NCBI GenBank assembly: GCA_003599815.1
Contig: QZJZ01000005.1
Coordinates: 33,410-97,409, forward strand
Reading direction: 5' to 3'
Source: Candidatus Auribacter fodinae
GTDB taxonomy: Bacteria > Auribacterota > Auribacteria > Auribacterales > Auribacteraceae
DNA length: 64,000 bases
Each line of letters begins with the position of its first letter. Position 1 is the first letter of the stretch. The notes beneath the pieces were generated by a model. It was not told the DNA's origin. It made no database searches and saw nothing but the letters and a program-made list of their open reading frames with translations. Below, piece by piece: positions 6,503 through 64,000 of this stretch. Both the position numbers and the translations under genes were made by a program.

Positions 6503-8719
6503 ATGGATATAGCTGTTATTTTTTCATTGTATGAGGATTCGTATCTTTTCAAGAGGTTTTTCGCGTGGGCAGAAGAAGTCAGCAAAGATAACTGTTCTTT
6601 TCATTTTATCCACCATTCTCAAAAAACTTTAAACAATACTATAGATTTTCCTGGAAAATATATTCATCTTGTTGACTACAAGGATGTTGTGCTTTATCTT
6701 GAGGAGAATGAAATTGATATTGTGCATTCGTATATCGGAGATAAAGTAACCTTCTTGGCGCGGGCGGCTGGAGTAAAACGGATAATTCAGCATCCTATAT
6801 CCAGTTATACTGAACTGGGAGTGGATTCTTACCCGGCAGACTGTATTTGTTGTTCCGATGAAAGTATGATTGGCCAGCTGAAAAAACAGTGTCCGCAAAA
6901 ACATATAGTTTCCATCAAAGACAGCATTAATATCGAGCCGGATCATAAGCCTCAGGATCTGCGGGATAAACTAGGTTTTAAATCCGGTGAAATCGTAATC
7001 GGTTTTGTCGGGAAATTATGGCGTCAGAAATATTTCGATAAGTTCATTTCAATGTTTTTGGAGTTATGCAAAAAAAATAAGAAATTGAAACTAGTACTCG
7101 ACGGGAGGACTTATAATAAACAATTTGAAGACTACCTTAATAGTAGGGTTGAATCAATATATTTTCATGATGATCCTGATGAACTGATCGCTAACTCGGA
7201 TATTTTGGTAATCAAGTCGGAAACATATTTTAATCCATATGGCGAAATTATTACTGAAAATGATCAAGAATATAACTGGTGGTTAATGCATGCAATGGCA
7301 TATGCTATCCCATTTATAACGATTTATAATAAGACTCAGAAACAAAGAAAGGAACTTATTAACGACAAAGAAAACTGTTTTGTCGTTGGCTTGGATGATA
7401 TGGCAGCTTATCAGGCAGCGCTCGCAGAACTAATCGATAATAAAAGAATCCGTGATACGTTTGGGCAAAACGGTAGAAAGATTCTGACAGAGGGTTACGG
7501 TGTAAATCTTGTAGCACAGCAATATAAAAAGCTTTATAACTATCTCTTGTCCGAACAGTTTGTGTCTGATTATCCATCAGCATCAAAAGATGCGGAGACC
7601 CATTTTCTGGGTAATATGATCGAACTGAAATCTCTTAAACTTGATCACAGAAAAGTGCTTGTTGTCCGTTCGGGAAGTCAAGTAAAAACAGAGGAATTGA
7701 TTACAAATATGACGAGAGCGTTTCCATCCGTGGAGTTGTCTCTTTGTTGTCATAAACGGAATTTGTCTGAAATGCGAAAATACGCAAATATCCATGAAAT
7801 TATTACCTATCAAAAATCCGATAGTTTTGATCAGGCAAGAATGAAAGCAGCCATTAAAAAGATTAATCGAAAAAAATATGATTATGTCTTTTTTGTCTTT
7901 AATAGTATTTTCCAGGAAATGACCCATCAGAATCTGTTGGATATTATCGTACAGTTACGTCCTGAATCAGGTATTGTAATATCGACGGGGAAACTCAACT
8001 TCCTTTATCCTTTTGTGCGGAAAGATGATATTGAGAGAAACCATCTTATAAATAAATATAAAAAAGCGCTGGACCCTGAGCAAGAATATGTGATTACTTC
8101 TCCATGGGAAAAGAATATTGCACATCTGCCGAAATGGGATCGATTTAAAATCGAGAAATACAGGGAAGTTATTAACTCCAGCAAAAAAATTCTTTGTTGC
8201 GGAGACCCCACTAATCCTATGTTCGGATTGTTTGAGGATGAACTAAAGGGTAAAGAACTCATTTCTGTTGATATCGTTGAAAAATGCAATCGTGATATAA
8301 TTGCAGATATTTGTGATTTACACATGATTGAGGATAACTCTATAGACGGTATTATATGTTATGCTATTTTAGAACATGTATATAATCCTTTCAAAGCAGT
8401 TGATGAATTGCATAGAATTTTAAAATCTGGTGGAAAAATAATGATGTTTGTTCCATGGATGTGGCGCCATCACTCGAATAAAAAAACATGCTTTGATTTT
8501 TATCGCTTCTCATGCGAGGGTGCCCGGTATTTGTTAAAAGATTTTTCCTATGTGGAATTGTCTCCTATACAGGGTAAACTGGAAGCGGTTTTTGTCTACG
8601 TCCTTCAGTTTATAAAATACCGGTCATTACTACACAAGCCGCTAGTCAAACTTATAAGAAGATTTGACAAGTGTACAGAAGAGGATCCTTCCGGATTTAA
8701 TATTTTTGCTGTTAAATAG
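6503..8719 (+). CDS. Glycosyltransferase (GT1/GT4-like) fused to a C-terminal class-I SAM methyltransferase domain
   Basis: Middle region GFVGKLWRQKYFDKFISMF...LVLDG is GT4-like. C-terminal ILCCGDP...DGIICYAILEHVYNP...LKSGGKIMM is Methyltransf_11-like. 738 aa. Confidence 0.5.
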   Translation: MDIAVIFSLYEDSYLFKRFFAWAEEVSKDNCSFHFIHHSQKTLNNTIDFPGKYIHLVDYKDVVLYLEENEIDIVHSYIGDKVTFLARAAGVKRIIQHPISSYTELGVDSYPADCICCSDESMIGQLKKQCPQKHIVSIKDSINIEPDHKPQDLRDKLGFKSGEIVIGFVGKLWRQKYFDKFISMFLELCKKNKKLKLVLDGRTYNKQFEDYLNSRVESIYFHDDPDELIANSDILVIKSETYFNPYGEIITENDQEYNWWLMHAMAYAIPFITIYNKTQKQRKELINDKENCFVVGLDDMAAYQAALAELIDNKRIRDTFGQNGRKILTEGYGVNLVAQQYKKLYNYLLSEQFVSDYPSASKDAETHFLGNMIELKSLKLDHRKVLVVRSGSQVKTEELITNMTRAFPSVELSLCCHKRNLSEMRKYANIHEIITYQKSDSFDQARMKAAIKKINRKKYDYVFFVFNSIFQEMTHQNLLDIIVQLRPESGIVISTGKLNFLYPFVRKDDIERNHLINKYKKALDPEQEYVITSPWEKNIAHLPKWDRFKIEKYREVINSSKKILCCGDPTNPMFGLFEDELKGKELISVDIVEKCNRDIIADICDLHMIEDNSIDGIICYAILEHVYNPFKAVDELHRILKSGGKIMMFVPWMWRHHSNKKTCFDFYRFSCEGARYLLKDFSYVELSPIQGKLEAVFVYVLQFIKYRSLLHKPLVKLIRRFDKCTEEDPSGFNIFAVK

Positions 8720-8867: not shown

Positions 8868-9569
8868 ATGCGCAACGTCTTCTCGCTGTCGTGTATATGC
8901 GTACTGCTTATATATGCGGCAGGCGTCTCTGCCTATGAACTGACATGGGATTACCTTGCTCGCACCACATGGGGCGACGGCTTCCGCCCTGACGGCGACA
9001 GTTACGGCAACACCGCTGTCTGGGACTACAAGTATACGCCGTTAAATTCCACAAGTTACGCGCTGTATCAGGCGCTTTCCAACTGGTATGAACCCTATGG
9101 GATGTGGTCGTACCTTCCTGTTCCCGGTGTTGCGGCTGATAACAACTGGCTGGTCGTCGCGGTTAATACTGCTCATCCCGGCAACCTGAATGACCTCGCG
9201 ATACAGTTCATCGCTCCGATGGACGGTGTGTATGACGTCTCTGTCCAGCTGTACAATTGGAACGGAGAAAATCTCAACGGCGCTGACGGGCAGGATTTCT
9301 ACCTGCAGAAAATGTCGTCCATTCTTGACACCGAAACCAATCCGGTGCATGGCACATCGGTTTTATCCGCGCAGGACGTATCACTGCTGGCGGGGGAGTC
9401 GCTCTTTCTGCGTATCAATATGAAAGCGAATTCACATTATGACAGCATATCGGTTCAGCAGTTTGTCGTCACCGGAACGTTTCCTGACCCGGTAGTCGTG
9501 CCTGAACCTGCGTCTGTCCTCCTGATGTTAGCCGGGTTAAGCGTCCTTATCCGCCGCCTGCGGCGATAA
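8868..9569 (+). CDS. PEP-CTERM sorting-domain secreted protein
   Basis: N-terminal signal peptide. C-terminal VPEPASVLLMLAGLSVLIRRLRR (PEP motif, TM helix, basic tail). Paralog of the partial gene at 63307-63981 (YELTWDYLARTTWG vs YDITWDYLERTGWG). Confidence 0.75.
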   Translation: MRNVFSLSCICVLLIYAAGVSAYELTWDYLARTTWGDGFRPDGDSYGNTAVWDYKYTPLNSTSYALYQALSNWYEPYGMWSYLPVPGVAADNNWLVVAVNTAHPGNLNDLAIQFIAPMDGVYDVSVQLYNWNGENLNGADGQDFYLQKMSSILDTETNPVHGTSVLSAQDVSLLAGESLFLRINMKANSHYDSISVQQFVVTGTFPDPVVVPEPASVLLMLAGLSVLIRRLRR

Positions 9570-9770: not shown

Positions 9771-12700
9771 TTACAGCGATGTGTCGATAGCGGGCGATGC
9801 GGACCGCAGGCGAAGAATCTTTCTGCCTATCGTTGTGCCGGATAGCGTGAACGCCCCAAGCTGGTGCGAATCGGTATATTCGTTGAACGGCTGAGAGTTG
9901 ACAGTTAGCTCCTCAATCTGTTCAGCGGCAAGGTCGCTGAACAGGAAAAGAGCAAATGCCAGTGTTTTGATGCCTGATACGCTGACTACGCCAGCGAGCC
10001 CTGCTTCCTGAAGAAGTTCGGTATTGTTGGACGCGAGTTTCAGCTGGGGCGACGAAATGTCATAGGTGCGAATAATGTCCGCCATGATGTCTCTGTTCGG
10101 TGTCTGTGAGCTCATTGCAAACCAGTCGAAAGCCTCTTTGTCGACTACACGCCCCCCGTGGGATATGAGCGTATCGTACAGCGATTTGCCGAGCATGCCT
10201 GTTATTTGGCGCTGGGTGTAGTTTCTGGAAAAGAGGACAAACCGCAGTGTTTTATTCTTTTCTGTGTACGTATCCATGAGTGCAAACAGTGATATGAACA
10301 GGTATTTCCTCATGTTCATGTTTTCTTCAGGTGTATTGGGAAGCATGCCGGTGCTGTCGAGGTCGAGCATAAGCACATCCATATCTAATGAATCGGGAAC
10401 GGGAATTTCAGCGCCGTCGCCCGATGGTATTGATTTATGTATAATATACTGTAAAACAGCGAATTGCGATGGAGCCATGTTCAGCTTGTCCGCAACAGTA
10501 AATGACTGAATGAACCTTTCTGACGGAGTCAGGCTTGGAGAAACCAGAACGGCGAAAATCGCGTTTTTGTTTAACATCGCAGGGTCAGGCAGTACTGATA
10601 AGCCGCCTGACAGGTATTTGTTGAGCAGTGCGGCTGATGACGGTACATTAAAGCTGAAACTGAGGAACAGTGAGTTTACTTCCTGCTGGGTAAACTCCGG
10701 TTTGGTGTTTGCCATTGAGCTGAGCAGTCTGCCGGTCAGCTCAGCGGAAAGCCGTTCGATGCGTTTATGAGCAACAGACCTGCTGATCCCCAGCAGGTTG
10801 CCGATGTCTTCATGGATAACGCCGCGCTTATATTTTAAATAGAGCATAACCTGTTCGTCTTCAGGCAGTGACCGGAAAAAGCCGTCGAGCGTTTTATTTG
10901 CAGATACCGATAGCGGAGCGGTGAACACTCCCGGCTCGATTATATTTAACAAAAAGGTGAAATCTCTGACCGTCGCCAGCTCTGAAACCGTTTCTTTTTT
11001 AGAACTATACGCCGCTCCGGTATCTTCACGGAAAATCAGGGGGAACCGTTTCGATTTCCGGTACGCCATTTCGTTCATGGCCCGCGCGATAGAGGCGCTG
11101 TCGTGTGATTCGTCTTCCCATGCGATGTTTAACGCCATAAGGGCATTTGCCGATGCGGACTCCACATATTTTTTCGCGTTCGTGTCGTTGGTTGTGAGGA
11201 TGTTAGATATCCCTTTCCCACCAAAAGGCATATTCTCATGAAACTTTAGGAACAGGAAGAACTGGTCTTCAAGGGAAAGAGCGTAAAAAGCACGTTTGTA
11301 CACGCTGTTGTCAAACGGTAGTTCATGGAGTTCAGGGATCCGGGTCATGAATTCGAACGAGTCTAACCCCGCAATTTTATCAGAATATTCTGACATCAGC
11401 GACTGAGCTGTATACTGGGGGTAGAGGCGTTTACGGAGTTGATCGGTGAACAGCGACATGTATGGCGCAAGTTCAGCGCTCGTATGGAATAATGCCTCTA
11501 TCTCTTTTGCCGGCATCTGTTTTTTCAGGCGCAGGTAGAGTATTTTCCTGTCCTGAATGTTCAGGTTTTTTGTGAATATGTCGCGGAGAATTGACTGCGT
11601 CTGATCGTTGAGCGGGAACGTGTACATTCCTCCTTCAATAAGGTTGAGGAGGAATGTATAGTCGTCCAGCTCGCGCGTTTCTTCGTATATCCGTTTTTGT
11701 GAAACAGGTGTGCCGGATTCCATGGCGTCATCCTTGAAGAGCAGGATAAAGGGATCGGCGCCTCTGTATATCCGCCTGTTGACTGCGAGCATCATATCGT
11801 CTGTGGAGTCGAACTTTTCTGAGAGAATGACGTTGATCGTTTCCATCAAGCGTGATTCCGCGTTTTGTGTTTCTTTTTGCCATCCTGATGAGGCGATCCT
11901 GATAAGATTGAAGACCCCGTCTCCGCCGGATACGGGCCGTTTCTCATAATGTTTCATAAAGAGTATGACCTGATCCTGATAACTCAATAGTTTAAACGCC
12001 AATTCCAGCATGGTGTCGGTGAATTCTTTTTCCGCTACTGCCGGGACGGCGCGTAGAAAGCTGAAATCCGTGATGCCGGATATCTGTTCAGTGAAGTATT
12101 CAGACGTACTCTGCCGTTGTGATGTCCCATTTTCTATCCATTGCCGTACGAGCCGTGTTACTTTGCTTTGTAAGTAAGGTGTAGTGAGTATTTTGCCTGT
12201 TAAACTCCGAACTGATTTCAGTGTAGCGCCTTGTTTGTTCCTGAGATACATTTGTAACTGTTCTTCCGGCGTGAATTCATTGAAAAACAGGTCTTTGAGC
12301 ATCGATTGAAACTCGTCTGATAACGGAAATGTATACAGCCCGCCTTCAAGCGAATTGAGCATAAAAGTGAAGTCATCAAGGTCATTGATTTCCTGCTGGA
12401 TTGTATCCTTGCCGACAGGTTCCATATCTGTCCGCATATCGTCACGGAAAACGATGGGGAATACCGGTACGCCGGTATAAAAATGTTCATTGAGCCGGGC
12501 GGGTAATCGTGCCGGGTCAGGGTATTGCGCAAACAGGAAGAGCGCATCGACAAACCGTTGGCGTGCCGCTTCATTGAACGGCAGTTCCGCGTTGTCCGAC
12601 GTGAAAAGGGTGTCCCACACTCCTTTTCCGCCGCCGTTCGGCATATTGAGGTATACGCGCATATACAATATAATCTGATCGGCGAAACTCATCGATCTGA

Positions 12701-15700
12701 AAACGGGTTCCAGCATTTCAGGGTCCACTTCGTCCGGTTTTGGAGCGAGCGCCGCCAGCCAGTTGAAATCCGATAACTGCGTTATGCTGTCCCTGTACTG
12801 CTCGAAAACTGATACGGATTGTTCCCTGCCTGCCTGCCGTTGCTGTACAAGGCGGTTAATCTTTTGGGTGACAAACAGGATGGTTTTTTTCCATCCGGTG
12901 ACAGCGGATATCCGCGCGATCGGCATCTGGTAATGGTAATGCAGGTAGAGTATGACTTGCTCGTTATAGGTCAGTTCTTTAGTGAACACGTCGCCCAGCA
13001 TTGCCTGCTGTACAGCGTCGAGAGGGAACCTGTACAATCCTCCTTCTATCGCGTTCAGCAGGAATGAGAAATCGGTTATGCCCGCTATTTCATCCCTGAG
13101 AGCCTGCGGGTCAAGTGAATGTTCCTCAGCTGGGATATCCACCTTAAATACCATAGGCGGTTGGTCTATACCTGCGTATATCTTGCTGTGCAGGAGTGCG
13201 GAAAAGGCGCTGGGATTATCATCATACTCCTGTGTGTACAGGCTGATCGCCTGTTGCAGGTGTTCTTTTGCGGCATCGATGCGTGCGGTTAAAGTCTGGA
13301 AACGTCCGGCGATCTGCCGTTCTATGCCGTTGAGCCATCCTCGAAGTGGCAGTTTCTGGTAATAGCGCATGTACAGTATGATTTGATCGCTGAAACTGAG
13401 CGCCCTGAACGCCGCTTCGTTTTCTTCCGGGCTGTGTGCCCCTTCAGCGAGCAGGTTGTCAATAAACGAGAAGTCGGATAGGACTGCGATCTTTTCGGAG
13501 TACTCGTTCAGTCCGGGAAAATAGCCTGATGACGTTTCGCCCATCATGAAATCCAGCATTTGTTCCCTGAGGTCGCTGAACGCTTTGTTAATTTTACTCA
13601 GGTGTAAGGGGTGGATATCCTGTATCTCTTTGTATGTCATGCGTTTTGCGAAAAAGATATATGCCAGTTTCTGCATTTCGGCCGGCAGTTGATTGAAGAA
13701 AGACTTCAGTTGATCGTTATCAGGTAAGTACGGCGCTCCTGCGGGGAGCAGGTTCAGCAAAAATGTGTAATCATTTATTCCTTCAAGGCTGATTGACTCA
13801 AAATTTGTGACGGGAGCGCTGATTACGGAAACAGGTGCGGTCATTTTGAATGTGAACGGGTAAGTGCCGTTATATGCCTGTCTTTTGACCGTATCGGCGT
13901 ACTCGAACGGGTCATATTCCTTATCGGGCTGAAACAATACCATCGCTTTGTTGAACGTGCTGATCGCGATGCGCATTCGTTGCCGTATGCTAACCTCCGC
14001 AAAGGGAAGTATATTCGACAATGCGATCGGTTTTAGTCCCTGATCGTAGGCGCTGAACAGGAGAAATTTATCTTCAAACATGAGAGAATCGAACACCTGT
14101 TTAAGCTGTTCGTCTGTCAGGCCTTGCGGTATTTTTTCGGTGTAGTCCGGCAAAATGAATGCGCGCAGGAACCCGAAATCCTCATTCGCGCGCAGGCGTT
14201 CGAGCAGATCGAAATAATGAAATTTAAACACAATATTTTTGAGATACAGCGCGGCGTCCTCTTCAGTTACGCTCATTGCGCCAGCAAGTTGAGCGGCGGT
14301 GATTTTGCCGTTTTTAAAGAGCCCGAACACGTCCTGTTCCTGTTTGTCGAGAAACGGCAGATAGCGCTGAAAACGATCATAGTTCAGGAACACCTCATTT
14401 GCTTTGGCGAGTGTGTTTATGAGATGTGTTATTTCACCAGTTTCAATATGGAACGCTTCTTTTACAGCATTGATTCCATCGCGGTGCGTATCTGCGTTGC
14501 GGTACACCCGGAGCATATCGCGCTGTTCCGTCGAAAGGAGATTGGAGAGAATCCCGTCGAAAAAGGCTTGCTGGTGAGTGAGGTTTATGTCTTCTGTATC
14601 CTCGCGTTCCATACGCAGTTCCATATCTTCCAGCTCATCATTGGCGAGCGGGTCGAGATCGCGCATGACGATGTTTTCTTTTGACTTGCCCGAATCGTCG
14701 TATGTTCCGTCAAGATCGGTAAGGCGTGAACCGGTATAATGCAGGTTTGATTTCAGAGTATCATCAGCGTAAAAGCGCGCTATGCCGATTCGAACTTCTT
14801 CTTCCACAAACGCAGGGAACGAGCCGAACTCAGAGAGTATGCGGTCGAGCTCCTCTTCAGTACGCTGTGTGTGAATGCTGGTGAGCAGGGCAAGATAGCC
14901 TTCCTGATCAATGTCTCCGGTAGTTATATAGCGTGCGCGCCATGCCCGTGAAAGGCTGTGGCGTGACCGTGCAGTTTCCAAAGCCAGAGCGTGGTACTGG
15001 TTGACCAGTTGTTCTATGGCTTCGGTATCGCCGTTGCCCGCGGCGATCCATGTTTGTTTTTCTTTTTGTGCCTGTGTTTGTTCCGGTGTAACTCTCTGCT
15101 GAGGAACACGCACCGGAGCGGTTGATACTGCCGGTGAAATGCGCACGGCAAGCTCCTTATCGTCAGCGCTTCGCAGGACATGAACGTTACGCACTTTTGA
15201 CAGTTCCATTTGCAGTACAGCTATGGAGCCGCGGTCATCTCCTATGTTTTCATACAGTATGCGAATTACTGATGATAAAGCGTGATGTATATCTTTCAGG
15301 TCAAGTGAGAAGTCGATTGATATATGGTTGAGCCGGGGGTTGAAATGGTCTGTCAGCAATCGTAAATCTGTTGGTAATCCTTTCGGACGCAAAGCAATCG
15401 GCGCATTGTTCTTGTGCGCATTGACCAGCAGATAGGTGGTATAGCGGGGTACAAGGCTGTTCGCGAGGCTGTACGTCCCGTGTATGTCACGGCTAGCAAG
15501 CCCGGTTTCAGCAAGGCTGTCAAGCAGGGCTGATATGTCCTGCGATGTCAGGTCGAGCTGGTACATATCGTATTCGAGTTCAGGGAGTAATCCTTCCACT
15601 GAATACGGATGGGTTGACAGCAGTCCAAGTATCGACATTTGTATCTGGTTGATTTTTCGGATGTACTGCGAGTAGCCTCGGTAATTGATAAATTCCTGAA

Positions 15701-17630
15701 CTGAGCCGTCAATTAGGCGCACGACTTCCAGAACCGTGCCTGTAGACGCGCTGTCCGAGTCGAAATTATCGGCTGATGTAGTGTAATCGACGAAAACGGT
15801 TTCTTTGATTTTCGAGTGCGGGTCGGTGATTACCAGCTCTGCTATGATCCTGTTTCCCACAAAGCTCACGGAATCAACGGATATCAATGTATCATACTCA
15901 GCTGTTCTCAGCGCGGTGTTTATGGCGGAACGTATGGTTTCCTGAATATGGTCGCGCAAAGCGAGCCTGAGCGACAGGGGGTACTTCTGCAATTCGTTCT
16001 GTATGTAACTGTTTAAGAGCGTAGAGGTGAACAGGAGTTTCATCTTTTGCGACAGGGCTGTCTTGACCGCCGGATCAGCCAGCGATTCCGTTGCCAGCCA
16101 TGATGCGATTTTCAGACTGCTGACCTGAGGAGCCATAACCTGTTCCAGAGGGGTCATGTAGTTGGACAACAGAGAAAAATACGGGATCGGTTTTTCGTTA
16201 TGCGCGGCATTCGGGGTAATCACCACATACGATATATTTTTCTCTGCCAGCATTTTTGTTATTCCGTCGGAATGATACCCTCCCGCTATCAGAACAGCGG
16301 CGTCCTGTTTGTTTTGTTCCATCACTCTGAAGGTGTTGCGCACCAGATCGTTTTCCCGCGCGCTTGCGGATGAGTAAAAGAGCTCGTAGTTTTCGAGTTC
16401 CGCAATAATAATTGGTAGATCTATATTCAGATCGGGCATCAGCGCTGATATTGATTTCAGGATTGACTCATGGTTCACTGTTTTGAGGGCTGCTATTTCT
16501 TCCTGCGATATGGTAATAGCCGCAAGATGTTGTATAAGAGTGATATATCGTGCTATATCGTAAATTTGCCGTTCTTTCTCGTTAGATATCAGGGCGGCAT
16601 ACACTTTTGAGCGAAGCTCTTCTTCTTCACGCAGAATTGCGGTGTTGTCGAATGAATCGTATGCCTGAAGGTACGCGCAGAACTTGTTGAAATGCGCGTA
16701 TACGGAGGTATCCATGCTGTTTTCGTTCATCAAACCAGAAAGGATCGTGTGGTATTCGAGAGGCGCGATGGTGTTTGTTTTGAAGCGTAGTTCTTGTTTG
16801 AAAAGATGTTCGCTCTGTTCGGGATCAAGGCGCTCAATAAGTTTGTTAAGTATTTCTGCACGTTCTGTATCTGCCTTTTGAAAATCGAGTTCCGATTCCA
16901 TTTGTGACAATGACATCAGTATAGAGAAGTTCGTCAGGTTCGCATATTCCACGAGGTTTTCATCAGCGGCGCGTGCGAGTTTGCGGCAGTAATCGAGAAA
17001 AATGTCCTGATTCGCAAGAAACTGGCTGACCAGTGAGTCGAACTGCTTTAGTTTCTTTGAATAGATGTTGTCTTTCAGCTCCTCGAGACGGATACTGACC
17101 GCACTGAGCAGGTTTTCCAGCTGGCTGTGCCCCTGTTCAGCACGTTGGTATGAAATGATGTTGGCGTTATACAATGCAGGGGTCTCGATGCCATGTAAAG
17201 AAAATAACTGCTCATTTTCGTTGCCGGAGTTGCGGATAATTGAAATGTATTCAGATCCGTCGATTTTGCCGTTCCTGAGAAAATAATCAGACACGGTTTC
17301 CTTCGTTTTCGTGTTTGGAAAACGGGAAAATTCACTGGTGTCTATTAGTCCGGCGGCGCCTTCCACGCAGACCAGATTGATGTTGTATTGCGTGTTGAGG
17401 TGTTCCAGTATGCGGGCGAGATTTTTTTGCGCGCCGTAGTTGGTATGGTTATCCTGAATATGAATAATGAGTTTGTTATCCGCCTGATGCTGTCCGTTTA
17501 CCGACCCGTACTGGTGCGGTATTTTTATATCGCCGGCAGATACCCGTGCGTTATTTTGATCCGCCAGAACCGGGGCACAAAAAATAAATTCCGCCACGAT
17601 CAGGCAGAGAATAAAAGGCCGTCTGAGCAT
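9771..17630 (-). CDS. Giant (2619 aa) secreted protein: TraB/GumN-like N-terminal domain plus at least five tandem ~234-aa A/B repeat pairs with sigma-70 region-4-like HTH segments
   Basis: Signal peptide MLRRPFILCLIVAEFIFCAPVLADQ. AAVLIAGGYHSDGITKMLAEKNISYVVI matches the TraB/GumN C-terminal GxxH motif. Type-A repeats (D[FY]TFLLN.IEGG.Y.FPL ... LPEDEQVMLYLKYKRGVIHEDIGNLLGISRSVAHKRIERL) start at aa ~1285, 1517, 1750, 1987 and 2221. Type-B repeats (DFSFL...DQIILYMR.Y...P.GGGKG) alternate at aa ~1384, 1619, 1852 and 2089. Confidence 0.8.
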   Translation of the reverse strand: MLRRPFILCLIVAEFIFCAPVLADQNNARVSAGDIKIPHQYGSVNGQHQADNKLIIHIQDNHTNYGAQKNLARILEHLNTQYNINLVCVEGAAGLIDTSEFSRFPNTKTKETVSDYFLRNGKIDGSEYISIIRNSGNENEQLFSLHGIETPALYNANIISYQRAEQGHSQLENLLSAVSIRLEELKDNIYSKKLKQFDSLVSQFLANQDIFLDYCRKLARAADENLVEYANLTNFSILMSLSQMESELDFQKADTERAEILNKLIERLDPEQSEHLFKQELRFKTNTIAPLEYHTILSGLMNENSMDTSVYAHFNKFCAYLQAYDSFDNTAILREEEELRSKVYAALISNEKERQIYDIARYITLIQHLAAITISQEEIAALKTVNHESILKSISALMPDLNIDLPIIIAELENYELFYSSASARENDLVRNTFRVMEQNKQDAAVLIAGGYHSDGITKMLAEKNISYVVITPNAAHNEKPIPYFSLLSNYMTPLEQVMAPQVSSLKIASWLATESLADPAVKTALSQKMKLLFTSTLLNSYIQNELQKYPLSLRLALRDHIQETIRSAINTALRTAEYDTLISVDSVSFVGNRIIAELVITDPHSKIKETVFVDYTTSADNFDSDSASTGTVLEVVRLIDGSVQEFINYRGYSQYIRKINQIQMSILGLLSTHPYSVEGLLPELEYDMYQLDLTSQDISALLDSLAETGLASRDIHGTYSLANSLVPRYTTYLLVNAHKNNAPIALRPKGLPTDLRLLTDHFNPRLNHISIDFSLDLKDIHHALSSVIRILYENIGDDRGSIAVLQMELSKVRNVHVLRSADDKELAVRISPAVSTAPVRVPQQRVTPEQTQAQKEKQTWIAAGNGDTEAIEQLVNQYHALALETARSRHSLSRAWRARYITTGDIDQEGYLALLTSIHTQRTEEELDRILSEFGSFPAFVEEEVRIGIARFYADDTLKSNLHYTGSRLTDLDGTYDDSGKSKENIVMRDLDPLANDELEDMELRMEREDTEDINLTHQQAFFDGILSNLLSTEQRDMLRVYRNADTHRDGINAVKEAFHIETGEITHLINTLAKANEVFLNYDRFQRYLPFLDKQEQDVFGLFKNGKITAAQLAGAMSVTEEDAALYLKNIVFKFHYFDLLERLRANEDFGFLRAFILPDYTEKIPQGLTDEQLKQVFDSLMFEDKFLLFSAYDQGLKPIALSNILPFAEVSIRQRMRIAISTFNKAMVLFQPDKEYDPFEYADTVKRQAYNGTYPFTFKMTAPVSVISAPVTNFESISLEGINDYTFLLNLLPAGAPYLPDNDQLKSFFNQLPAEMQKLAYIFFAKRMTYKEIQDIHPLHLSKINKAFSDLREQMLDFMMGETSSGYFPGLNEYSEKIAVLSDFSFIDNLLAEGAHSPEENEAAFRALSFSDQIILYMRYYQKLPLRGWLNGIERQIAGRFQTLTARIDAAKEHLQQAISLYTQEYDDNPSAFSALLHSKIYAGIDQPPMVFKVDIPAEEHSLDPQALRDEIAGITDFSFLLNAIEGGLYRFPLDAVQQAMLGDVFTKELTYNEQVILYLHYHYQMPIARISAVTGWKKTILFVTQKINRLVQQRQAGREQSVSVFEQYRDSITQLSDFNWLAALAPKPDEVDPEMLEPVFRSMSFADQIILYMRVYLNMPNGGGKGVWDTLFTSDNAELPFNEAARQRFVDALFLFAQYPDPARLPARLNEHFYTGVPVFPIVFRDDMRTDMEPVGKDTIQQEINDLDDFTFMLNSLEGGLYTFPLSDEFQSMLKDLFFNEFTPEEQLQMYLRNKQGATLKSVRSLTGKILTTPYLQSKVTRLVRQWIENGTSQRQSTSEYFTEQISGITDFSFLRAVPAVAEKEFTDTMLELAFKLLSYQDQVILFMKHYEKRPVSGGDGVFNLIRIASSGWQKETQNAESRLMETINVILSEKFDSTDDMMLAVNRRIYRGADPFILLFKDDAMESGTPVSQKRIYEETRELDDYTFLLNLIEGGMYTFPLNDQTQSILRDIFTKNLNIQDRKILYLRLKKQMPAKEIEALFHTSAELAPYMSLFTDQLRKRLYPQYTAQSLMSEYSDKIAGLDSFEFMTRIPELHELPFDNSVYKRAFYALSLEDQFFLFLKFHENMPFGGKGISNILTTNDTNAKKYVESASANALMALNIAWEDESHDSASIARAMNEMAYRKSKRFPLIFREDTGAAYSSKKETVSELATVRDFTFLLNIIEPGVFTAPLSVSANKTLDGFFRSLPEDEQVMLYLKYKRGVIHEDIGNLLGISRSVAHKRIERLSAELTGRLLSSMANTKPEFTQQEVNSLFLSFSFNVPSSAALLNKYLSGGLSVLPDPAMLNKNAIFAVLVSPSLTPSERFIQSFTVADKLNMAPSQFAVLQYIIHKSIPSGDGAEIPVPDSLDMDVLMLDLDSTGMLPNTPEENMNMRKYLFISLFALMDTYTEKNKTLRFVLFSRNYTQRQITGMLGKSLYDTLISHGGRVVDKEAFDWFAMSSQTPNRDIMADIIRTYDISSPQLKLASNNTELLQEAGLAGVVSVSGIKTLAFALFLFSDLAAEQIEELTVNSQPFNEYTDSHQLGAFTLSGTTIGRKILRLRSASPAIDTSL
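10730..14480 (-). repeat. Tandem protein-coding repeat array inside the giant gene, about 700-bp period (A+B units) with at least five copies
   Basis: Amino-acid periodicity 1517->1750->1987->2221 (233-237 aa). Copies have diverged and are not identical at the DNA level. Confidence 0.6.
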
Positions 17631-25017: not shown

Positions 25018-25884
25018 TCAACCGAATCGCCCGGTAACGTAATCCGATGTTTCCTGGCAGTGAGGCGCCTGAAAGATGGTACCTGTCGGTCCGTATTCGA
25101 TGAGCCGTCCAAGATACATGAACGCCGTGTAATCGCTGGTGCGTGCCGCCTGCTGCATATTATGAGTTACCATGAGGATGGTGTACTCGCCTCGCATGGC
25201 GTCTATCAAATCTTCTATTTTGTTGGTAGCGATCGGGTCAAGAGCGGAACAGGGCTCGTCCATGAGGAGCACTTCCGGTTCCGCGGCTATGGCGCGGGCG
25301 ATGCATAATCGCTGCTGTTGTCCGCCGGAGATGGCAAGCGCGCTGTCGTTCAGGCGGTCTTTGACCTCTTCCCAGAGAGCCGCGCCTCTAAGGCTTTTTT
25401 CGCATACTTCAGCCAGCACATTTTTATTGCGTTCTCCGTCAATACGGAGCGGATACACGACATTTTCAAATATGGTCATGGGAAACGGGTTAGGTTTCTG
25501 AAACACCATGCCCATCCGTTTGCGCAGTTCGATGACGTCGACTGCGGGGTCGTAGATAGGGTCGTCGTTCAGGTACATATTTCCTTCAATCCGCACGATG
25601 CTGAGCAGGTCGTTAATACGGTTGACGGAGCGGAGCAGAGTGGATTTCCCACACCCTGAAGGGCCGATGAGCGACGTTACCTTTCCTTTTGGTATTTTAA
25701 TGTTTATATCGAAAAGAGCTTGTTTCGCGCCGTAGAAAAGATTGAACTCCTTCACATCGAGGGTGATATCCTCGTTGTTTATCTCGGCGTGGGTCTCTGT
25801 AACGATCCGTTCGCCTTTAGCTATCGACTCAAAAAAGTTGCCTTTTCTGAGCCCTGGTTTGTTCTTCATGATTGCCTCTGTCAT
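25018..25884 (-). CDS. pstB: Phosphate ABC transporter ATP-binding protein PstB
   Basis: Walker [10 protein letters not shown], signature SGGQQQRL, Walker B LLMDEP, and PstB-type C-terminus. Confidence 0.9.
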
Positions 25885-25903
25885 TATGGTATACTCTCTC
25901 CAC

Positions 25904-27670
25904 TTAAAACTTTGCTGATACAAACTTTTTGCGCAGTTTTCTACGTAACTTGACCGCGAGCATATTCAGTATAAAAACGATGGTTATAAGCAGTAATGTA
26001 GTGGTAAACACCATTGGTTTTGCCGCCTCGCTGTTCTGGCTCTGGAATCCCAGGTCATATATATGAAACCCCAGATGCATAAAGCTTCGTTCAAGATGAA
26101 CAAACGGGAACATTCCGTCTACTGGAAGTTCCGGCGCGAGTTTTACCGCTCCGACAAGCATCAGCGGCGCCACTTCGCCCGCTCCGCGCGCCATGGCAAG
26201 GATCATGCCGGTCATGATGCCGGGCATAGCTCTTGGCAGAACAATCCGCCAGATGGTCTGCCATTTGCCTGCGCCGCATGCGTATGACCCTTCGCGCATA
26301 GAGTTCGGTACTGCGGATAACGCTTCTTCGGTCGCCACAATTACCACAGGCAGTGTCATCAGCGCCAGTGTCATCGATGCCCACAGGATGCCTCCTTTAC
26401 CAAAAGTAGGGTTAGGCAGGCGTGCGGCAAAAAAGATATCATCAATCGATGCGCCGACCATATAACAGAAAAAACCGAGCCCGAACACACCGAACACAAT
26501 GCTCGGCACTCCGGCAAGGTTGTTGATAGAAATACGAATCGTGCTGACTACAAGCCCACCTTTGGCGTATTCGCGTAAATATAACGCCGCCATAACACCG
26601 AACGGCACGACAGCCAACGACATGATAACAGTCATGACCACCGTTCCGAATATGGCGGGAAAGACACCGCCTTCGCTGTTTGCCTCGCGGGGCTCATCAA
26701 AAAGGAACTCGTGCCATCGCGAAAGATATATGTTCATGCGGTCGAAAAAAGTCAGTGAGTTGGCCGGGTACATGCGGACAATATCTGCCAGTGGAATGAT
26801 TTTTTCTTTATTGTCAGCGGTTGTGAACCTGATCTTATATTTATCATTTTCTTCTTTCAGTGAGTTTATTTCTGTGCGTATATCCTCGTACGCGCTTTGT
26901 GATCTGGCATGAAAGGATTTAAAGTGATCGTTCTGTGTGTTCCACTGCTCGGATTCGATACCGAATTTCAGTTCCTTTTCGCGCAGTTTCAGGCGCTCTT
27001 TTTCCTCATAAAAATTTATTTTGCCGATTTCATGGGTTTCCAGTTTGCGCTGTGTACGCCATCTCTTGCGGACTTCTTTGTGGTGTTTGTTGAATGTTTC
27101 CCAGATCTGGTTGTCGTCCTGAGCGATAACTTCGCCGTTATAAAGAAATGCTGAGGGGAATCCGTAAAACCGTCCCCATGATGTACGTTCAACAACACAT
27201 GCCTGCTCTGGCGTGGTATGCTCTCGGACATCATACTCATTTACCCAATTATAATGTTCGCCGGAAAGGTCGAAATTGCCGGTACGCACCAGCATTCGTT
27301 TGGCGATGCCGTTGTGCTTCTCAAAGTAGGCGACTGCGTCGGAATTGACTTTTTCCTGGTGCTGGTGCAGTTCTGATTTTGCCGGGTTGAAATGTTCTAC
27401 GCGGGTAATTTCGCCCATATATGGTTTGTTGTCGTATGTGACAAACAAATCTACCGGTTTTGGCCAAAGTGTATTGATACCGTTGATAACAATCAGCGTC
27501 ATCAGCCCGGCGATCATCATTAAAGATACCACAAGCCCGCCGCCGGTAAGCCATATCATCGGTTCTCCCTGCGCGAAGAGCGATGCTTTTGCTCGTTGAC
27601 GGCTTGACCGTTTAAAGGAATTTTTCTTTTTTGATTCTGTTGATTTCTGGACAGCGGCATCTGTTTTCAT
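25904..27670 (-). CDS. pstA: Phosphate ABC transporter permease PstA, long form (588 aa)
   Basis: C-terminal permease core with the EAA-like loop ([16 protein letters not shown]). N-terminal ~300-aa extension. Confidence 0.85.
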
Positions 27671-30315: not shown

Positions 30316-30415
30316 TATTTTGCGCTAAAAACTGAAAATTCTCTGTGGTTTCACAGGGGCAGAACCGTATCACAATCCTGCCCCTGCGAGAAACCATTAT
30401 CAGAGCTAAATTATA

Positions 30416-37108: not shown

Positions 37109-37471
37109 GATGTACCTCCTGAGCGTCAATGCTGATGTTGTTTATATAACAATAGTACTGTTTTGTCTCCCTAATAGAAAGATTAAAGTTTGCGAGAATA
37201 GTTAAATATAATGCACGTATATTGTATGTTTAATATAATCTCTTGTATTGTAGTATGATGTGATTTTGATCCCATGTTACCCTTTTGCGAATGTTATGAA
37301 ATAATTGCTATTTCGCCTGAAGGTAATTGCCGTATATATAAGAGATATGCTTTCCGGCAAAGTATGATAAAAAACAGCGCGCCGCCGGTGCGCAATAGTC
37401 TGGACAGTATTGCGCCGTGTATGTAGAATATAAATCATTCGGACAGGTGTCATTTTTTCAGAAGGGGAAAT

Positions 37472-47931: not shown

Positions 47932-48016
47932 GTTTGTGTCTCCTTAATACTATAATTAATCTTTCAGTGTGGCGCCATTCACTAGTAATAACAAATCCCG
48001 CATCGCAAAAGTTCCG

Positions 48017-49501: not shown

Positions 49502-50188
49502 ATGAAACAGCGCGGATTTATGTTAATCGCTATGTGCCTGCTGGGTATCTACTGTTCGACTGCCGATGCAGAGTCAGTCATTTTACAGCCTGAAGCGGCG
49601 GATGGTAAAAACAGTTATGTGCATTCCAATGTCGCCTCATACCCCATGGGACCCGGGCCAACGATCTATTCTTCAAGAGGTTATGCCGGTTATACCTCAT
49701 ATTCTTTGATCGAATTTGATTTATCCTCAATAGTAATCCCGACAACCGCCACTATAGAATCCGCGGTCATGGGAGTGTATGTCAGCGAAAAGTACGGAAG
49801 TGTATCCAGCGGAGTCAATGCGTACAGAATCACGTCAGCATGGACAGAATCAGGTGTTACATGGAACAATCAGCCTTCAGTGGATACCTCAGTCGCGATT
49901 CTGAATTCCGGCGGATTAGTATCGTCTGTCGGCTGGGTAGAATGGGATATAAAAAGTTTTGTGGAAGGATGGCTTGATACCCCGTCAACCAACTTCGGTG
50001 TTGAGTTAAGAAATATTGTGTCTGGATCGCAATTCGCGTATCATTCGTCAAATCAATCCAACTATCCGGCATACCGCCCGACACTGACAATAACGTATAC
50101 TGAGCAAGTCGTTGTACCTGAACCGCTGTCCATGATACTGCTGGGGTGCGGGCTGACTGCTTTGTATTGTAGAAGAAGCAAAAAATAA
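49502..50188 (+). CDS. PEP-CTERM sorting-domain protein with DNRLRE-like beta-sandwich domain
   Basis: Signal peptide. YSLIEFDLSS...YRITSAWTESGVTWNNQP matches the DNRLRE/CBM96-like pattern. C-terminal VPEPLSMILLGCGLTALYCRRSKK. Confidence 0.75.
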   Translation: MKQRGFMLIAMCLLGIYCSTADAESVILQPEAADGKNSYVHSNVASYPMGPGPTIYSSRGYAGYTSYSLIEFDLSSIVIPTTATIESAVMGVYVSEKYGSVSSGVNAYRITSAWTESGVTWNNQPSVDTSVAILNSGGLVSSVGWVEWDIKSFVEGWLDTPSTNFGVELRNIVSGSQFAYHSSNQSNYPAYRPTLTITYTEQVVVPEPLSMILLGCGLTALYCRRSKK

Positions 50189-54459: not shown

Positions 54460-54839
54460 GTTGTGTATGTATCTCCATCGAATTGGTGTCGGATTGTTTC
54501 GGATACTATAGTATGAAGCACTCTGCCCGTCAAGGCATAACCGTTTTCGCAAGGGCGATGGAATCGTCATGCATGGGGCGGCGTGAAATAGTAATATCGC
54601 ACAATATCGAAATACTTTTTTTAATATGCAGGTATAGTCAGGCTGAAGACAGTAATGTTAATGTCATTGGAATAAATTGTTGTATTTATATTAATTCTGT
54701 ATTAAAATCTTTGAATGTGTAATAAATATTTAATTATCGGCATTATAAATATAATTGTACCGTTTTTTATAACTTCTAAATTATTATAAATGTAACTATT
54801 GATGTAAAGCCAAAACTTTATGCCGGAAGGAGATACAGC

Positions 54840-55569
54840 AATGCAAAAGAGGTTGTTACGTATGGTTCCCGTGATGTGTATGATTTTGTTCGTGTCCGGA
54901 GTGAGTATTGCTAACGCGGGTGTACTCCCTGACCGGGCGACACTGGAAAGTATTCTTGGAGCTAACGCCGTAACCGAAGATTTCGAGACATTGGCGGTAC
55001 CTTCCAACACTGCTTATGGCATCGCTAATGTCGATACCCTTGATTCGTCAACGATTCTCACAATCAATACCATGCTTTTCGGACCGGGCCTGGTTATCCC
55101 CGGTGTGTCGTTTACCGAGCTGGACAACCTGAATTGGAACGGTGAAAATATCTGGGGCCAGACATCAAGAGCAATTTTAGGGTTTAATTATGACGGGATA
55201 CCCGGACACAGCATAGTAATCGATTTTCATAACCCGACGCCTGCCTGCGGGCTTGACCTGTCTATTCTTTCTGTTACCCCCTTTCATCCTGATGTTTTCA
55301 ATGTGGCAGTCTATGGCGCGGATGATTCGTCGCTATTGTACACGTCAGGGGATATAAACATTGACTTTTTCACGCGGATTTTCTGGGGATACACCGATGA
55401 TGCAGGTATCGGGAAAATAGCGGTATCGTCGACCACGCAGGATTGGTCTGCGATTGTGGATAATGTCACGTTCGACGGAAGCGCTGTTCCTGAGCCGGTC
55501 AGCAGTGCACTCTTCGTGTTTGGCGCAGGCTTTTTAGTGTCGTATTATCGTAAGAAGAGAAGCAAATAG
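54840..55569 (+). CDS. PEP-CTERM sorting-domain protein
   Basis: RBS GGAAGGAGA before ATG 54840 (MQKRLL...). Signal peptide. C-terminal VPEPVSSALFVFGAGFLVSYYRKKRSK. Confidence 0.7.
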
Positions 55570-55760: not shown

Positions 55761-56475
55761 TTATTTCAACCCAACGCTTTTTTTAACCAATACGGCAACC
55801 GCACTGCCAAGCAGGAACACCGATAGGGGTTCGGGCACAGCATTCATTTCGTCATCAGTATACATTTCGATTTCATTTATTACGTAGTAATCAGGTATAT
55901 CATGCGATGGGTTGTAGGACGGTTGGTAATCAATTGCGAAGACATAATCATTGATATAAATATCAACATAGTCTGTAAAATGCGGATTAGCGTCAATTTC
56001 AATAGCGGCTTTTTCCACAAAGGTTGAACCATCATCGGAAATAAAAAGTTTGCTTTCAGACCACCGATCTTTATAAATTCCACTATTTATATCGACAACA
56101 TTGTATGTCCGAATTTTAGTGATATAAACCGAATGAGGAAATATAACCCGCAAGGGAGCGATATTTGTTCCGGGCTGAGAACCGTCATTGTTTCCTGCAG
56201 GAAGCCAATAATTGTCATAGGTACCGGAAGCAAGCTGATTATCAATTATATGCTGCATGAAATAACGCGTATCTCCGCTATAAGGAGGTTTTGTAGATAT
56301 CCAATATACATCGCCTGCGATGCCTGATGCTGTAGTGATCATTGAACTGTCATTGTAACTGCCGCCAGAAACAAGCAGAAAATTTATTTTTGTCTCATCT
56401 GCAATTGAGGATGCACCGCATAACAAAAATCCGCATAGTGATATGAAAAATAATGTAAGCCTCAGTTCACGCATC
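55761..56475 (-). CDS. PEP-CTERM-like sorting-domain protein with lysine-rich tail
   Basis: RBS AAGGAGA before ATG 56475 (MRELRL...). Signal peptide. C-terminal VPEPLSVFLLGSAVAVLVKKSVGLK. Confidence 0.65.
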
Positions 56476-56658
56476 GCTATCTCCTTGTCTAAATTTAGAT
56501 TTTTTCGCATCATATATAGAGATATACCACATAAATTGAGGTTTTACCAACCGAGCCAAGATTTTATTCTAAAAAAAGTAATTCGAGCAATATTTTGATT
56601 TTGAGGTAGTAAACTATATCCAATAGCAGGATACACGCAGACTTAGCGTTTTACACTT

Positions 56659-57354: not shown

Positions 57355-57370
57355 TATGTATCTCCCACGG

Positions 57371-58145: not shown

Positions 58146-58156
58146 ATAAAAACTCC

Positions 58157-58387: not shown

Positions 58388-58412
58388 AACACATTCCTCC
58401 TGTTTTTCTAAA

Positions 58413-59888: not shown

Positions 59889-59993
59889 GTCTTTGCTCCT
59901 TGTTGGTGTTTCGATGTTTCCGGTACGACAGTGATTAATCGAACTGTTCGTATTTAATTAGCTGTTTTGCTATTTGGATTTTGCAAAAAAATT

Positions 59994-60332: not shown

Positions 60333-60350
60333 TCATCCCTCTTTTTTAAA

Positions 60351-61023: not shown

Positions 61024-61032
61024 AAAAATGCC

Positions 61033-61925: not shown

Positions 61926-61973
61926 GCCTGATCTCCCTCTTAAGAAGTTCTTTGCGAGAATGTTCTCATTATG

Positions 61974-63306: not shown

Positions 63307-63981
63307 TTATATCCTGCTTCGTTTTCTGAACAATAGCCCCGTTATGGCGGCAATAATCAGCCCGGCGGACGCGGGTTCAGGTACCGCAGGCGGCTCAACC
63401 GGCGGTTCAGGATCAGTAAAATGACCGGTAATGATAAAATTCTGTATTGTAACTATATCGTATCCTTCGTAATCATTAGCATTAACGCGCAGGTATACCA
63501 CATCGCCTTCATTGAGCGACACGTTTGTTTTGGTCAATGTTGATGTTGCCTGTTTCGCGTTGTATTTGCTGACAAGAACCGTAGAAAATTTCTGCAGATA
63601 AAAATACTGCCCGTTGCCGTACTGCGCGGCTTCAGGTGTTGTGTTTGAGTTCCATAAGGTAACTGAAAAGTCGTATACGCCGGTTTCCGGGGCGTAGAAC
63701 GCGATTGTGGGATCGCTTGCCAGCCCGGGGTGCAGGTAGCTGTAATCGATCATGAACCAACCGTCGTTTCCTGAGCCCGGATAGGTGGTTCCGGTAATCC
63801 ATCGGGTTGAGGATGCATACCAGTTCAGACTGCCGGAATATGTTGTATGGGTCGTGGATCCTTCCGGCGCTTTGAAATAGTCCCATACGCCTATATTACC
63901 ATGCTCGTCATTATCCGATTTCGCGCCGACACCCCATCCGGTGCGTTCAAGGTAGTCCCATGTGATATCATAGGCATGCAC
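63307..63981 (-). CDS. PEP-CTERM sorting-domain protein, N-terminus cut by the window edge; paralog of 8868-9569
   Basis: The reverse frame is open to the window end. C-terminal PEPPVEPPAVPEPASAGLIIAAITGLLFRKRSRI. Shares the WDY...TWG, FYLQK and Q.F..TG.F.DP blocks with the gene at 8868. Confidence 0.7.
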   Translation of the reverse strand: MHAYDITWDYLERTGWGVGAKSDNDEHGNIGVWDYFKAPEGSTTHTTYSGSLNWYASSTRWITGTTYPGSGNDGWFMIDYSYLHPGLASDPTIAFYAPETGVYDFSVTLWNSNTTPEAAQYGNGQYFYLQKFSTVLVSKYNAKQATSTLTKTNVSLNEGDVVYLRVNANDYEGYDIVTIQNFIITGHFTDPEPPVEPPAVPEPASAGLIIAAITGLLFRKRSRI

Positions 63982-64000
63982 AGTACCACAAAAAACGAGT

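What the first reader, a model, noticed from the sequence alone, without database searches (positions are those of the whole stretch)
8868..9569. Five PEP-CTERM cargo genes, including a paralogous pair at opposite ends of the window, but no exosortase in 64 kb
PEP-CTERM tails (VPEP, TM helix, R/K-rich end) are present in the genes at 8868, 49502, 54840, 55761 and 63307. The genes at 8868 and 63307 are clear paralogs. The gene at 49502 carries a DNRLRE-like domain. PEP-CTERM proteins depend on an exosortase (XrtA/EpsH) that is normally linked to an EPS locus and a PrsK/PrsR system. This window has glycosyltransferases, Wzx, Wzm/Wzt and three histidine kinases, but no multi-TM exosortase-like ORF. 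The sorting enzyme is therefore elsewhere. The kinases here (two hybrid, one multi-PAS) are candidates for controlling matrix production.
Basis: partly seen in the sequence, partly recalled or inferred. Interest (0 to 1): 0.6.

Follow-up and report, generated by a model that had tools for sequence, protein, structure and literature searches.

The report
PEP-CTERM cargo genes without nearby exosortase
The window, from the uncultured deep-mine bacterium Candidatus Auribacter fodinae, holds five genes for small secreted sugar-binding-like proteins with a known C-terminal sorting tag (PEP-CTERM); the sorting enzyme is not nearby, which is the usual arrangement.

Summary
Five ORFs end in [V]PEP, a hydrophobic helix and a basic cluster (8868, 49502, 54820/54841, 55761, 63307), against 0.003 expected by chance. 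Four reach a curated PEP-CTERM cut-off. The fifth (55761) does not, but it is a full-length paralog of a tail-positive protein. The genes at 8868 and 63307 are 40% identical paralogs. The gene at 49502 carries a DNRLRE/CBM96 domain.

No exosortase is in the window. None is in 106.6 kb of the 109.9-kb source contig, which I rebuilt from public copies. That contig, from Candidatus Auribacter fodinae (PVC group), carries 17 PEP-CTERM tails.

The cargo proteins are single beta-sandwich, carbohydrate-binding-module-like domains, based on two confident AlphaFold models and HMM matches. Cargo genes are gained and lost between two genomes about 95% identical.

Whether the genome has an exosortase could not be tested. 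It is expected, because EpsH was found in every PEP-CTERM genome studied. The three kinases are not PrsK. A PVC genome with 65 such tails has no PrsK/PrsR/PrsT at all, so the proposed regulatory link has no support.

This is an ordinary, already annotated arrangement.

The parts
8868..9569 (+). Cargo gene 1 (233 aa). It has a signal peptide (aa 1-22, ...GVSA/YE), a beta-jelly-roll domain and a PEP-CTERM tail (aa 211-233, nt 9498-9566: VPEPASVLLMLAGLSVLIRRLRR). NCBI names it 'PEP-CTERM sorting domain-containing protein [Candidatus Auribacter fodinae]'.
49502..50188 (+). Cargo gene 2 (228 aa, RJP62077). It has a signal peptide, a DNRLRE/CBM96 domain (aa 36-198) and a PEP-CTERM tail (aa 205-228, nt 50114-50185). 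It is divergent from the ECF sigma/anti-sigma operon at 47377-49076. A paralog, RJP62024, lies 74 kb away on the contig.
   Evidence: NF033679 106 bits; TIGR02595 15.1; PF24517 81 bits; PF07589 20.9 vs 20.7; 33% id, E 2e-29.
54820..55569 (+). Cargo gene 3 (249 aa from 54820; 242 aa from ATG 54841, as in RJP82-type calls). It has a signal peptide, a beta-jelly-roll domain and a PEP-CTERM tail (nt 55486-55566).
55761..56513 (-). Cargo gene 4 (250 aa; 237 aa in RJP62083). It has a signal peptide, a discoidin-like domain and a VPEP tail with a weak basic end (nt 55764-55838: VPEPLSVFLLGSAVAVLVKKSVGLK). The tail is below both HMM cut-offs. The gene is absent from the 95%-identical relative MAG.
   Evidence: 10.9; 13.1; F5_F8_type_C 15.8; UniRef 'Discoidin domain-containing'; 41% id, E 3e-49 to RJP62027; 33% to RJP62034; their tails pass; deletion in relative.
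63307..64000 (-). Cargo gene 5, a paralog of gene 1. The 5' end is cut by the window edge; the full protein is 243 aa (RJP62094) and would end at about 64038. The PEP-CTERM tail is at nt 63310-63384.
   Evidence: TIGR02595 19.4; 40% id to 8868.

Best explanation
The five ORFs are genuine PEP-CTERM cargo genes of Candidatus Auribacter fodinae (phylum Auribacterota, PVC group). Each encodes about 230-250 aa: an N-terminal signal peptide, one beta-sandwich domain of the carbohydrate-binding-module/lectin type, and the PEP-CTERM tail.

Inferred mechanism, from the PEP-CTERM/exosortase literature and not shown here:
1. Sec exports the protein.
2. The C-terminal helix holds it in the inner membrane.
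3. A multi-span exosortase encoded elsewhere in the genome cleaves at the PEP motif and passes the protein to the cell surface or polysaccharide matrix.
4. There the lectin-like domains bind glycans, either the cell's own matrix or external polymers.

The window is part of a 110-kb contig that is a cargo hot spot, with 17 tails in at least three paralog families. Its content changes by gene-sized insertions and deletions between near-conspecific genomes. The missing neighbouring exosortase is the normal many-cargo-to-one-enzyme layout, not an anomaly.
For: - Tails: present far above chance, and four of five reach curated cut-offs. P-E-P is the only invariant stretch in 26/26 members of the 8868 family, and 24/26 hit TIGR02595. 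16/22 homologs of 54820 keep the tail. 55761 is a full-length paralog of tail-positive proteins.
- Annotation: PGAP already names 8868, 49502 and 63307 as PEP-CTERM proteins.
- Hot spot: 17 tails on 104.8 kb of stitched contig, and the left-flank tails pass TIGR02595.
- Turnover: the relative MAG is 93-96% identical, with indels exactly at cargo genes.
- No exosortase.
- Expectation of one elsewhere: TIGR02602 found EpsH in every PEP-CTERM genome studied. The median count is 8 tails per genome and V. spinosum has 65. Similarity is stronger within a species than between species (PMC1569441).
Against: - No exosortase of this organism was seen, and the rest of the MAG could not be searched. Both genome-contig scans missed it. 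The protein search lists only the best 120 of 5119 exosortase hits.
- 55761 fails both tail HMMs, and 49502 is 0.9 bit short of TIGR02595.
- Glycan binding rests on fold resemblance at 5-15% identity. No binding site was identified.
- Signal peptides were judged by eye, not with a predictor.
- Cleavage and surface display have not been shown for any of these proteins.
Confidence: 0.8

Rival explanations
1. This lineage has no canonical exosortase. The tails would then be plain C-terminal membrane anchors, or be handled by an unrecognised enzyme.
For: No exosortase was found in 106.6 kb around 17 cargo genes. None was found in five further loci (about 100 kb) around cargo genes of the relative MAG. 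The Auribacterota genome paper does not mention exosortase or PEP-CTERM.
Against: Strict conservation of P-E-P in front of the helix across two cargo families argues for a recognition site rather than a mere anchor. In published surveys every PEP-CTERM genome has EpsH. Only about 3% of a genome of a few Mb was examined, and cargo is usually unlinked to the enzyme.
Confidence: 0.07
2. One reading: the three histidine kinases in the window regulate the PEP-CTERM/matrix system, as PrsK/PrsR does.
For: The kinases lie in the same 64 kb as glycan-synthesis genes and cargo genes.
Against: - PrsK model: 88 bits against a cut-off of 300, matched over the catalytic core only.
- No PrsR-type sigma-54 activator or PrsT was seen.
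- The kinase at 33244 overlaps an ErcA-like regulator (544.6 bits). The kinase at 18485 follows an ABC solute-binding gene.
- V. spinosum, a PVC genome with 65 PEP-CTERM proteins, has no PrsK/PrsR/PrsT.
- The only regulator adjacent to a cargo gene is an ECF sigma/anti-sigma pair divergent from 49502.
Confidence: 0.05
3. The window's glycan gene clusters form an XrtA-type EPS locus whose exosortase lies just outside the window.
For: The best NCBIfam neighbours of the flanking GT4s and of the asparagine-synthase homolog are XrtA-system models (TIGR03088, TIGR03108).
Against: All are far below cut-off (97-125 vs 409; 331 vs 817), and the AsnB homolog passes the generic TIGR01536. The whole left arm of the contig (33 kb) and 9 kb to the right were read and contain no exosortase.
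Confidence: 0.02

Closest known systems
PEP-CTERM/exosortase (EpsH/Xrt) protein-sorting system (Haft et al. 2006, PMC1569441; TIGR02595, PF07589)
   Same: The tripartite tail sits at the extreme C-terminus. The proteins have N-terminal signal peptides. There are many cargo genes per genome in species-specific paralog expansions. The cargo has few recognisable domains, and glycan-synthesis genes occur in the same genome.
   Different: The enzyme was not observed. The host is a candidate phylum (Auribacterota) for which the system has not been discussed in the papers I could search. Cargo density is unusually high (17 tails in 105 kb).
Verrucomicrobium spinosum-type PVC systems (65 PEP-CTERM, two EpsH, no EpsI/PrsK/PrsR/PrsT)
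   Same: It belongs to the same superphylum. It has many cargo genes and no PrsK/PrsR/PrsT-like genes near them.
   Different: Nothing is known here about the number or type of exosortases.
Proteobacterial XrtA type-1 loci (XrtA with TIGR03087/03088 glycosyltransferases, TIGR03108 amidotransferase, FemAB-like protein, PrsK/PrsR/PrsT), e.g. Vibrio alfacsensis pVa1
   Same: GT4 glycosyltransferases and an asparagine-synthase homolog lie near cargo genes.
   Different: No marker reaches its cut-off, there is no XrtA, and there is no PrsK/PrsR/PrsT. This is not an XrtA locus.
NF038129 / FxDxF / THxN families of small PEP-CTERM proteins (NCBIfam)
   Same: Similar size (about 200-250 aa) and a single beta-rich domain followed by the tail. 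There are weak matches that include part of the domain (29.5 bits).
   Different: The matches are below cut-off (65). The 8868/63307 family has its own N-terminal signature (TWDY..RTGWGD..DGDEYGN..VW.Y.Y) and no dedicated model.
Carbohydrate-binding modules with beta-jelly-roll fold (CBM51, CBM6/35/36, CBM22, CBM4) and C1q/TNF domains
   Different: Sequence identity is 5-15% and TM-scores are 0.25-0.5. No ligand site was identified, so this is a resemblance of fold only.

Membership tests
PEP-CTERM sorting domain (TIGR02595 / PF07589) | Pro-Glu-Pro motif within the last ~25-30 residues | tested here: met
   VPEP lies 19-23 residues before the stop codon in all five.
PEP-CTERM sorting domain (TIGR02595 / PF07589) | Hydrophobic transmembrane stretch directly after the motif, then a basic cluster at the C-terminus | tested here: met
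   The best 12-residue Kyte-Doolittle mean is 1.97-2.87. The ends are RRLRR, RRSKK, RKKRSK, KKSVGLK (weak) and RKRSRI.
PEP-CTERM sorting domain (TIGR02595 / PF07589) | HMM score at or above the curated cut-off | tested here: inconclusive
   8868, 54820 and 63307 pass TIGR02595. 49502 passes PF07589 only. 55761 passes neither (10.9/16; 13.1/20.7), but it is a full-length paralog of proteins that pass.
PEP-CTERM sorting domain (TIGR02595 / PF07589) | N-terminal signal peptide | tested here: met
   All five have a hydrophobic N-terminus with an A-x-A-like site, judged by inspection only. The AF2 models show an N-terminal helix separate from the domain.
PEP-CTERM sorting domain (TIGR02595 / PF07589) | Multiple instances per genome | tested here: met
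   There are 17 tails on one contig. More lie on other contigs of this MAG (RJP57216) and of the relative.
PEP-CTERM sorting domain (TIGR02595 / PF07589) | Same genome encodes an exosortase (TIGR02602 / TIGR04178 / PF09721) | not testable with these tools
   None was found in 106.6 kb of the contig.
PEP-CTERM sorting domain (TIGR02595 / PF07589) | Host has exopolysaccharide genes and an outer membrane | tested here: inconclusive
   Wzx, Wzm/Wzt and the GT2/GT4 clusters are present. The outer membrane was not examined; PVC-group membership suggests a diderm.
XrtA type-1 EPS locus | PrsK histidine kinase (TIGR02916), with PrsR and PrsT | tested here: not met
   The best score is 88.6 bits against a cut-off of 300, over the kinase core only. 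No PrsR or PrsT was seen among the scanned ORFs.
XrtA type-1 EPS locus | XrtA-associated amidotransferase (TIGR03108) and glycosyltransferases (TIGR03087/03088/04063) | tested here: not met
   Scores are 331 vs 817, 125 vs 409 and 75 vs 442.
Exosortase (any ORF in the window) | Multi-span membrane protein matching PF09721 / TIGR02602 / TIGR04178 with conserved Cys, Arg and His | tested here: not met
   All 13 ORFs with 3 or more TM segments belong to other families. The custom exosortase HMM gives a best E of 0.87 in six frames.
DNRLRE domain / CBM96 (gene 49502) | HMM above cut-off | tested here: met
   NF033679 scores 106.1 vs 34, and PF24517 scores 81.1 vs 26.
NF038129 family PEP-CTERM protein (gene 8868) | HMM above cut-off | tested here: not met
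   The score is 29.5 vs 65, and only the C-terminal third matches.

The most novel reading that the evidence does not exclude
Auribacterota carry dozens of PEP-CTERM-tagged lectin-like proteins but no recognisable exosortase. The tag would then be read by an undescribed enzyme, or would act as a cleavage-independent anchor. This would break the one rule that defined the system.
Probability: 0.06. Interest if true: 0.7.

Novelty: new member of a known kind. Interest (0 to 1): 0.2.

Why it matters
It matters little for the sorting system itself. The layout of many scattered cargo genes and one distant enzyme is the textbook pattern, and GenBank already labels most of these genes.

Three modest points are worth keeping:
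- It documents the PEP-CTERM system in the candidate phylum Auribacterota, whose cell-surface biology is unknown.
- It defines two small cargo families that have no curated model. Their only invariant feature is the PEP motif.
- It suggests that this deep-subsurface bacterium displays a fast-changing set of single-domain, lectin-like modules on its surface. That would bear on attachment and biofilm life in rock-hosted fluids.

Tried and rejected
1. Genome-contig scans with the cargo alignment and with a flanking glycosyltransferase found nothing close.
2. The metagenome-contig scan with the cargo family gave only two loci from an unrelated 37% GC organism, with no exosortase.
3. To obtain real exosortase sequences I wrote an XrtA-like sequence from memory. 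It hit annotated xrtA genes on plasmids at 44-47% identity.
   - I then fetched five real exosortases and built a local HMM from them.
   - It found nothing in the window, the stitched contig or the relative's loci.
4. The search for homologous proteins with the exosortase alignment lists only the best 120 of 5119 hits, none from Auribacterota. The organism's own enzyme cannot be targeted this way. Planctomycete plasmid exosortases exist but would have the same ranking problem, so I ran no further search on them.
5. Contig walking:
   - Ids from the listing of cluster members were accepted, which let me read the contig to its left end and to 3.4 kb from its right end.
   - One look-up (P0208) found nothing on record.
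6. I considered the overlapping ORFs 53340-53921 and 53851-54570 as a frameshifted exosortase. They are two half-size chromate transporter genes.
7. I considered the 174-aa four-TM protein beside cargo genes on the left flank as a mini-exosortase. It is a 'transporter suffix domain' protein.
8. The promoter/terminator scan around 8868 gave no more than chance.

Full report
**Observation.** The window has 45.7% G+C. Five ORFs end in V-P-E-P, then 14-17 mostly hydrophobic residues, then a basic cluster:
- 8868-9569 (+)
- 49502-50188 (+)
- 54820-55569 (+), with an alternative ATG at 54841
- 55761-56513 (-)
- 63307 to beyond 64000 (-)

These are shown. A scan of all 756 stop-to-stop frames of at least 40 aa finds these five and no others. 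The strict pattern occurs 0.003 times on average in 300 residue shuffles. All five have a hydrophobic N-terminus with an Ala-X-Ala-like site. I judged this by eye, not with a predictor.

**HMM calls.** Scores are listed for 8868 / 49502 / 54820 / 55761 / 63307:
- TIGR02595 (cut-off 16): 20.4 / 15.1 / 16.6 / 10.9 / 19.4
- PF07589 (cut-off 20.7): 19.2 / 20.9 / 14.9 / 13.1 / 16.0

So four of five reach a curated cut-off. 55761 does not reach either. It is nevertheless 41% identical over its whole length, tail included (E 3e-49), to RJP62027, and 33% identical to RJP62034. Both lie on the same contig, and their tails score 19.2 and 20.8. The genes at 8868 and 63307 are 40% identical (E 3e-49). The gene at 49502 has a DNRLRE domain (106 bits, cut-off 34), which Pfam calls CBM96 (81 bits).

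**No exosortase in the window.** Thirteen ORFs have three or more predicted membrane segments. NCBIfam and Pfam assign all of them to other families:
- a Wzx-type flippase
- PstA and a WD40-PstC fusion
- a Wzm ABC-2 permease
- two sulphur-transport halves
- TrkH
- a CPA2 antiporter
- two half-size and one full-size chromate transporter
- an ArsG/DsbD_2 protein
- an ArsP permease

As a check that does not depend on ORF choice, I obtained five annotated exosortases from plasmids: XrtA from Vibrio and Sphingomonas, XrtD from Loktanella, and generic Xrt from N. vulgaris pDV and Paludibaculum. I built an HMM from them and searched all six frames. The best E-value was 0.87.

**Source and wider context.** The 8868 protein is identical to a GenBank protein named 'PEP-CTERM sorting domain-containing protein [Candidatus Auribacter fodinae]'. 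That organism is MAG SURF_26 from deep gold-mine fluid, in the candidate phylum Auribacterota of the PVC group.

I stitched 104,782 bp of the 109,948-bp contig from public copies, using L022, L021, L001, the window and L007. Window position 1 corresponds to contig position 33,430. A further look-up extended the read to 106.6 kb.

The stitched sequence carries 17 PEP-CTERM tails. Ten lie left of the window, five inside it and two to the right. Two of the 17 sit on 52-aa and 58-aa remnant ORFs. The left-flank tails pass TIGR02595. No part of the 106.6 kb matches an exosortase. The contig ends in ordinary housekeeping genes.

BLASTP sorts the cargo into families:
- 8868 with 63307
- 55761 with RJP62027 and RJP62034
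- 49502 with RJP62024
- RJP62028 with two others

So the 'pair at opposite ends' is one of several paralog groups.

**What the cargo proteins are.**
- *The others.* 49502 is CBM96/DNRLRE. 55761 and RJP62027 are discoidin-like. UniRef calls RJP62028 a C-type lectin.

I therefore infer that the contig encodes a battery of single-domain, lectin-like surface modules. This rests on fold and family resemblance only. No binding site was identified.

**Turnover.** A second MAG (GCA_040756935.1) is 93-96% identical in nucleotide sequence over the shared parts. The differences fall on cargo genes:
- the 55761 gene is missing from it
- a 386-aa PEP-CTERM gene is inserted between the TrmO and ArsR genes
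- a 219-aa PEP-CTERM gene replaces an 85-aa ORF

This fits the published picture of lineage-specific paralog expansion (PMC1569441).

**Mechanism.** The shown parts are the tag, the signal peptides, the folds, the paralogy and the absence of a linked enzyme. The rest is inferred from the literature: Sec export, retention by the C-terminal helix, cleavage at PEP by an exosortase, and transfer to the surface or matrix. Haft et al. found an EpsH homolog in every genome with PEP-CTERM proteins and a median of eight cargo genes per genome. Verrucomicrobium spinosum, also in the PVC group, has 65 cargo proteins and two EpsH but no EpsI, PrsK, PrsR or PrsT. An unlinked enzyme is therefore the expected state.

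The three kinases are as described: two PAS-HisKA-HATPase-REC hybrids and one four-PAS kinase. Their PrsK scores are 88 bits or less against a cut-off of 300, and the match covers only the catalytic core. The four-PAS kinase overlaps an ErcA-like regulatory alcohol dehydrogenase (544.6 bits). The kinase at 18485 follows a solute-binding protein gene.

The glycosyltransferases and the asparagine-synthase homolog at the left end have XrtA-system models as weak best or second-best neighbours. They are far below cut-off, and the sequence beyond them holds no exosortase. The only regulator next to a cargo gene is an ECF sigma/anti-sigma/LTXXQ operon divergent from 49502.

**What could not be done.** I could not search the rest of the MAG. 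The genome collection did not return it. The large protein search ranks by score and shows only 120 of 5119 exosortase hits. Look-ups allow only limited walking. I put 0.06 on the genome truly lacking an exosortase.

**Verdict.** This is a correct observation of an ordinary arrangement that is already largely annotated in GenBank. Its small added value is the cargo hot spot, the lectin-like nature of the cargo, two unmodelled cargo families, and the first explicit note of the system in Auribacterota.

Noticed in passing
window 9771-17630 (-): A 2619-aa ORF lies convergent with the 8868 cargo gene. Its only Pfam matches are weak Sigma70_r4/HTH hits at aa 2253-2294. A D[FY][ST]F[LM] motif recurs at aa 1287, 1520, 1753, 1990 and 2223, which implies tandem repeats of about 233 aa. 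Function unknown.
   Followed up: partly
window 25018-31402 (-): A pstSCAB operon has unusual fusions. PstC (882 aa) carries an N-terminal WD40 beta-propeller, and PstA (588 aa) has an N-terminal extension of about 300 aa.
   Followed up: no
window 33244-37129 (-): An ErcA-like iron alcohol dehydrogenase regulatory protein (544.6 bits, cut-off 550) overlaps the start of the four-PAS histidine kinase. This suggests an ErcA/ErcS-like sensing pair rather than a matrix regulator.
   Followed up: no
window 47377-49076 (-), next to 49502 (+): An ECF sigma factor, a zf-HC2 anti-sigma factor and an LTXXQ/Metal_resist periplasmic protein form an operon. It is divergent from the DNRLRE PEP-CTERM gene and is a possible envelope-stress regulator of that cargo gene.
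   Followed up: no
window 56659-63137 (-): A metal/metalloid-related gene block is interleaved with cargo genes. It holds ChrA, a methyltransferase, DsrE-like, TrmO-like, ArsR, an ArsP permease, a thioredoxin, a DGC-domain protein and an ArsG/DsbD_2 permease. Two half-size chromate transporter genes lie at 53340-54570.
   Followed up: partly
stitched contig, window coordinates -25316 to -9632 (L021/L022): Ten more PEP-CTERM tails lie left of the window, mostly with IPEP-A/L-S/T-(I/V)... tails. One sits on a 52-aa remnant next to a 213-aa ORF, probably a disrupted gene. They flank an SBP_bac_3-HisKA kinase, a radical SAM/SPASM gene and an HDOD/HD protein.
   Followed up: partly
L008 10950-12110 and 6173-6832; window 55761-56513: Between two MAGs 93-96% identical, whole PEP-CTERM genes are inserted, replaced or deleted, while the flanking genes stay collinear.
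   Followed up: partly
alignment A5 (homologs of window 54841-55569): Planctomycete homologs of about 300 aa keep the N-terminal jelly-roll domain. They replace the PEP-CTERM tail with a Cys-rich C-terminal domain of about 90 aa, so the C-terminal module has been swapped.
   Followed up: no
window 6503-8719 (+): A 738-aa fusion of a GT4-like glycosyltransferase and a C-terminal methyltransferase lies just upstream of the 8868 cargo gene. In the relative MAG it is replaced by two different genes (253 aa and a 261-aa methyltransferase).
   Followed up: no
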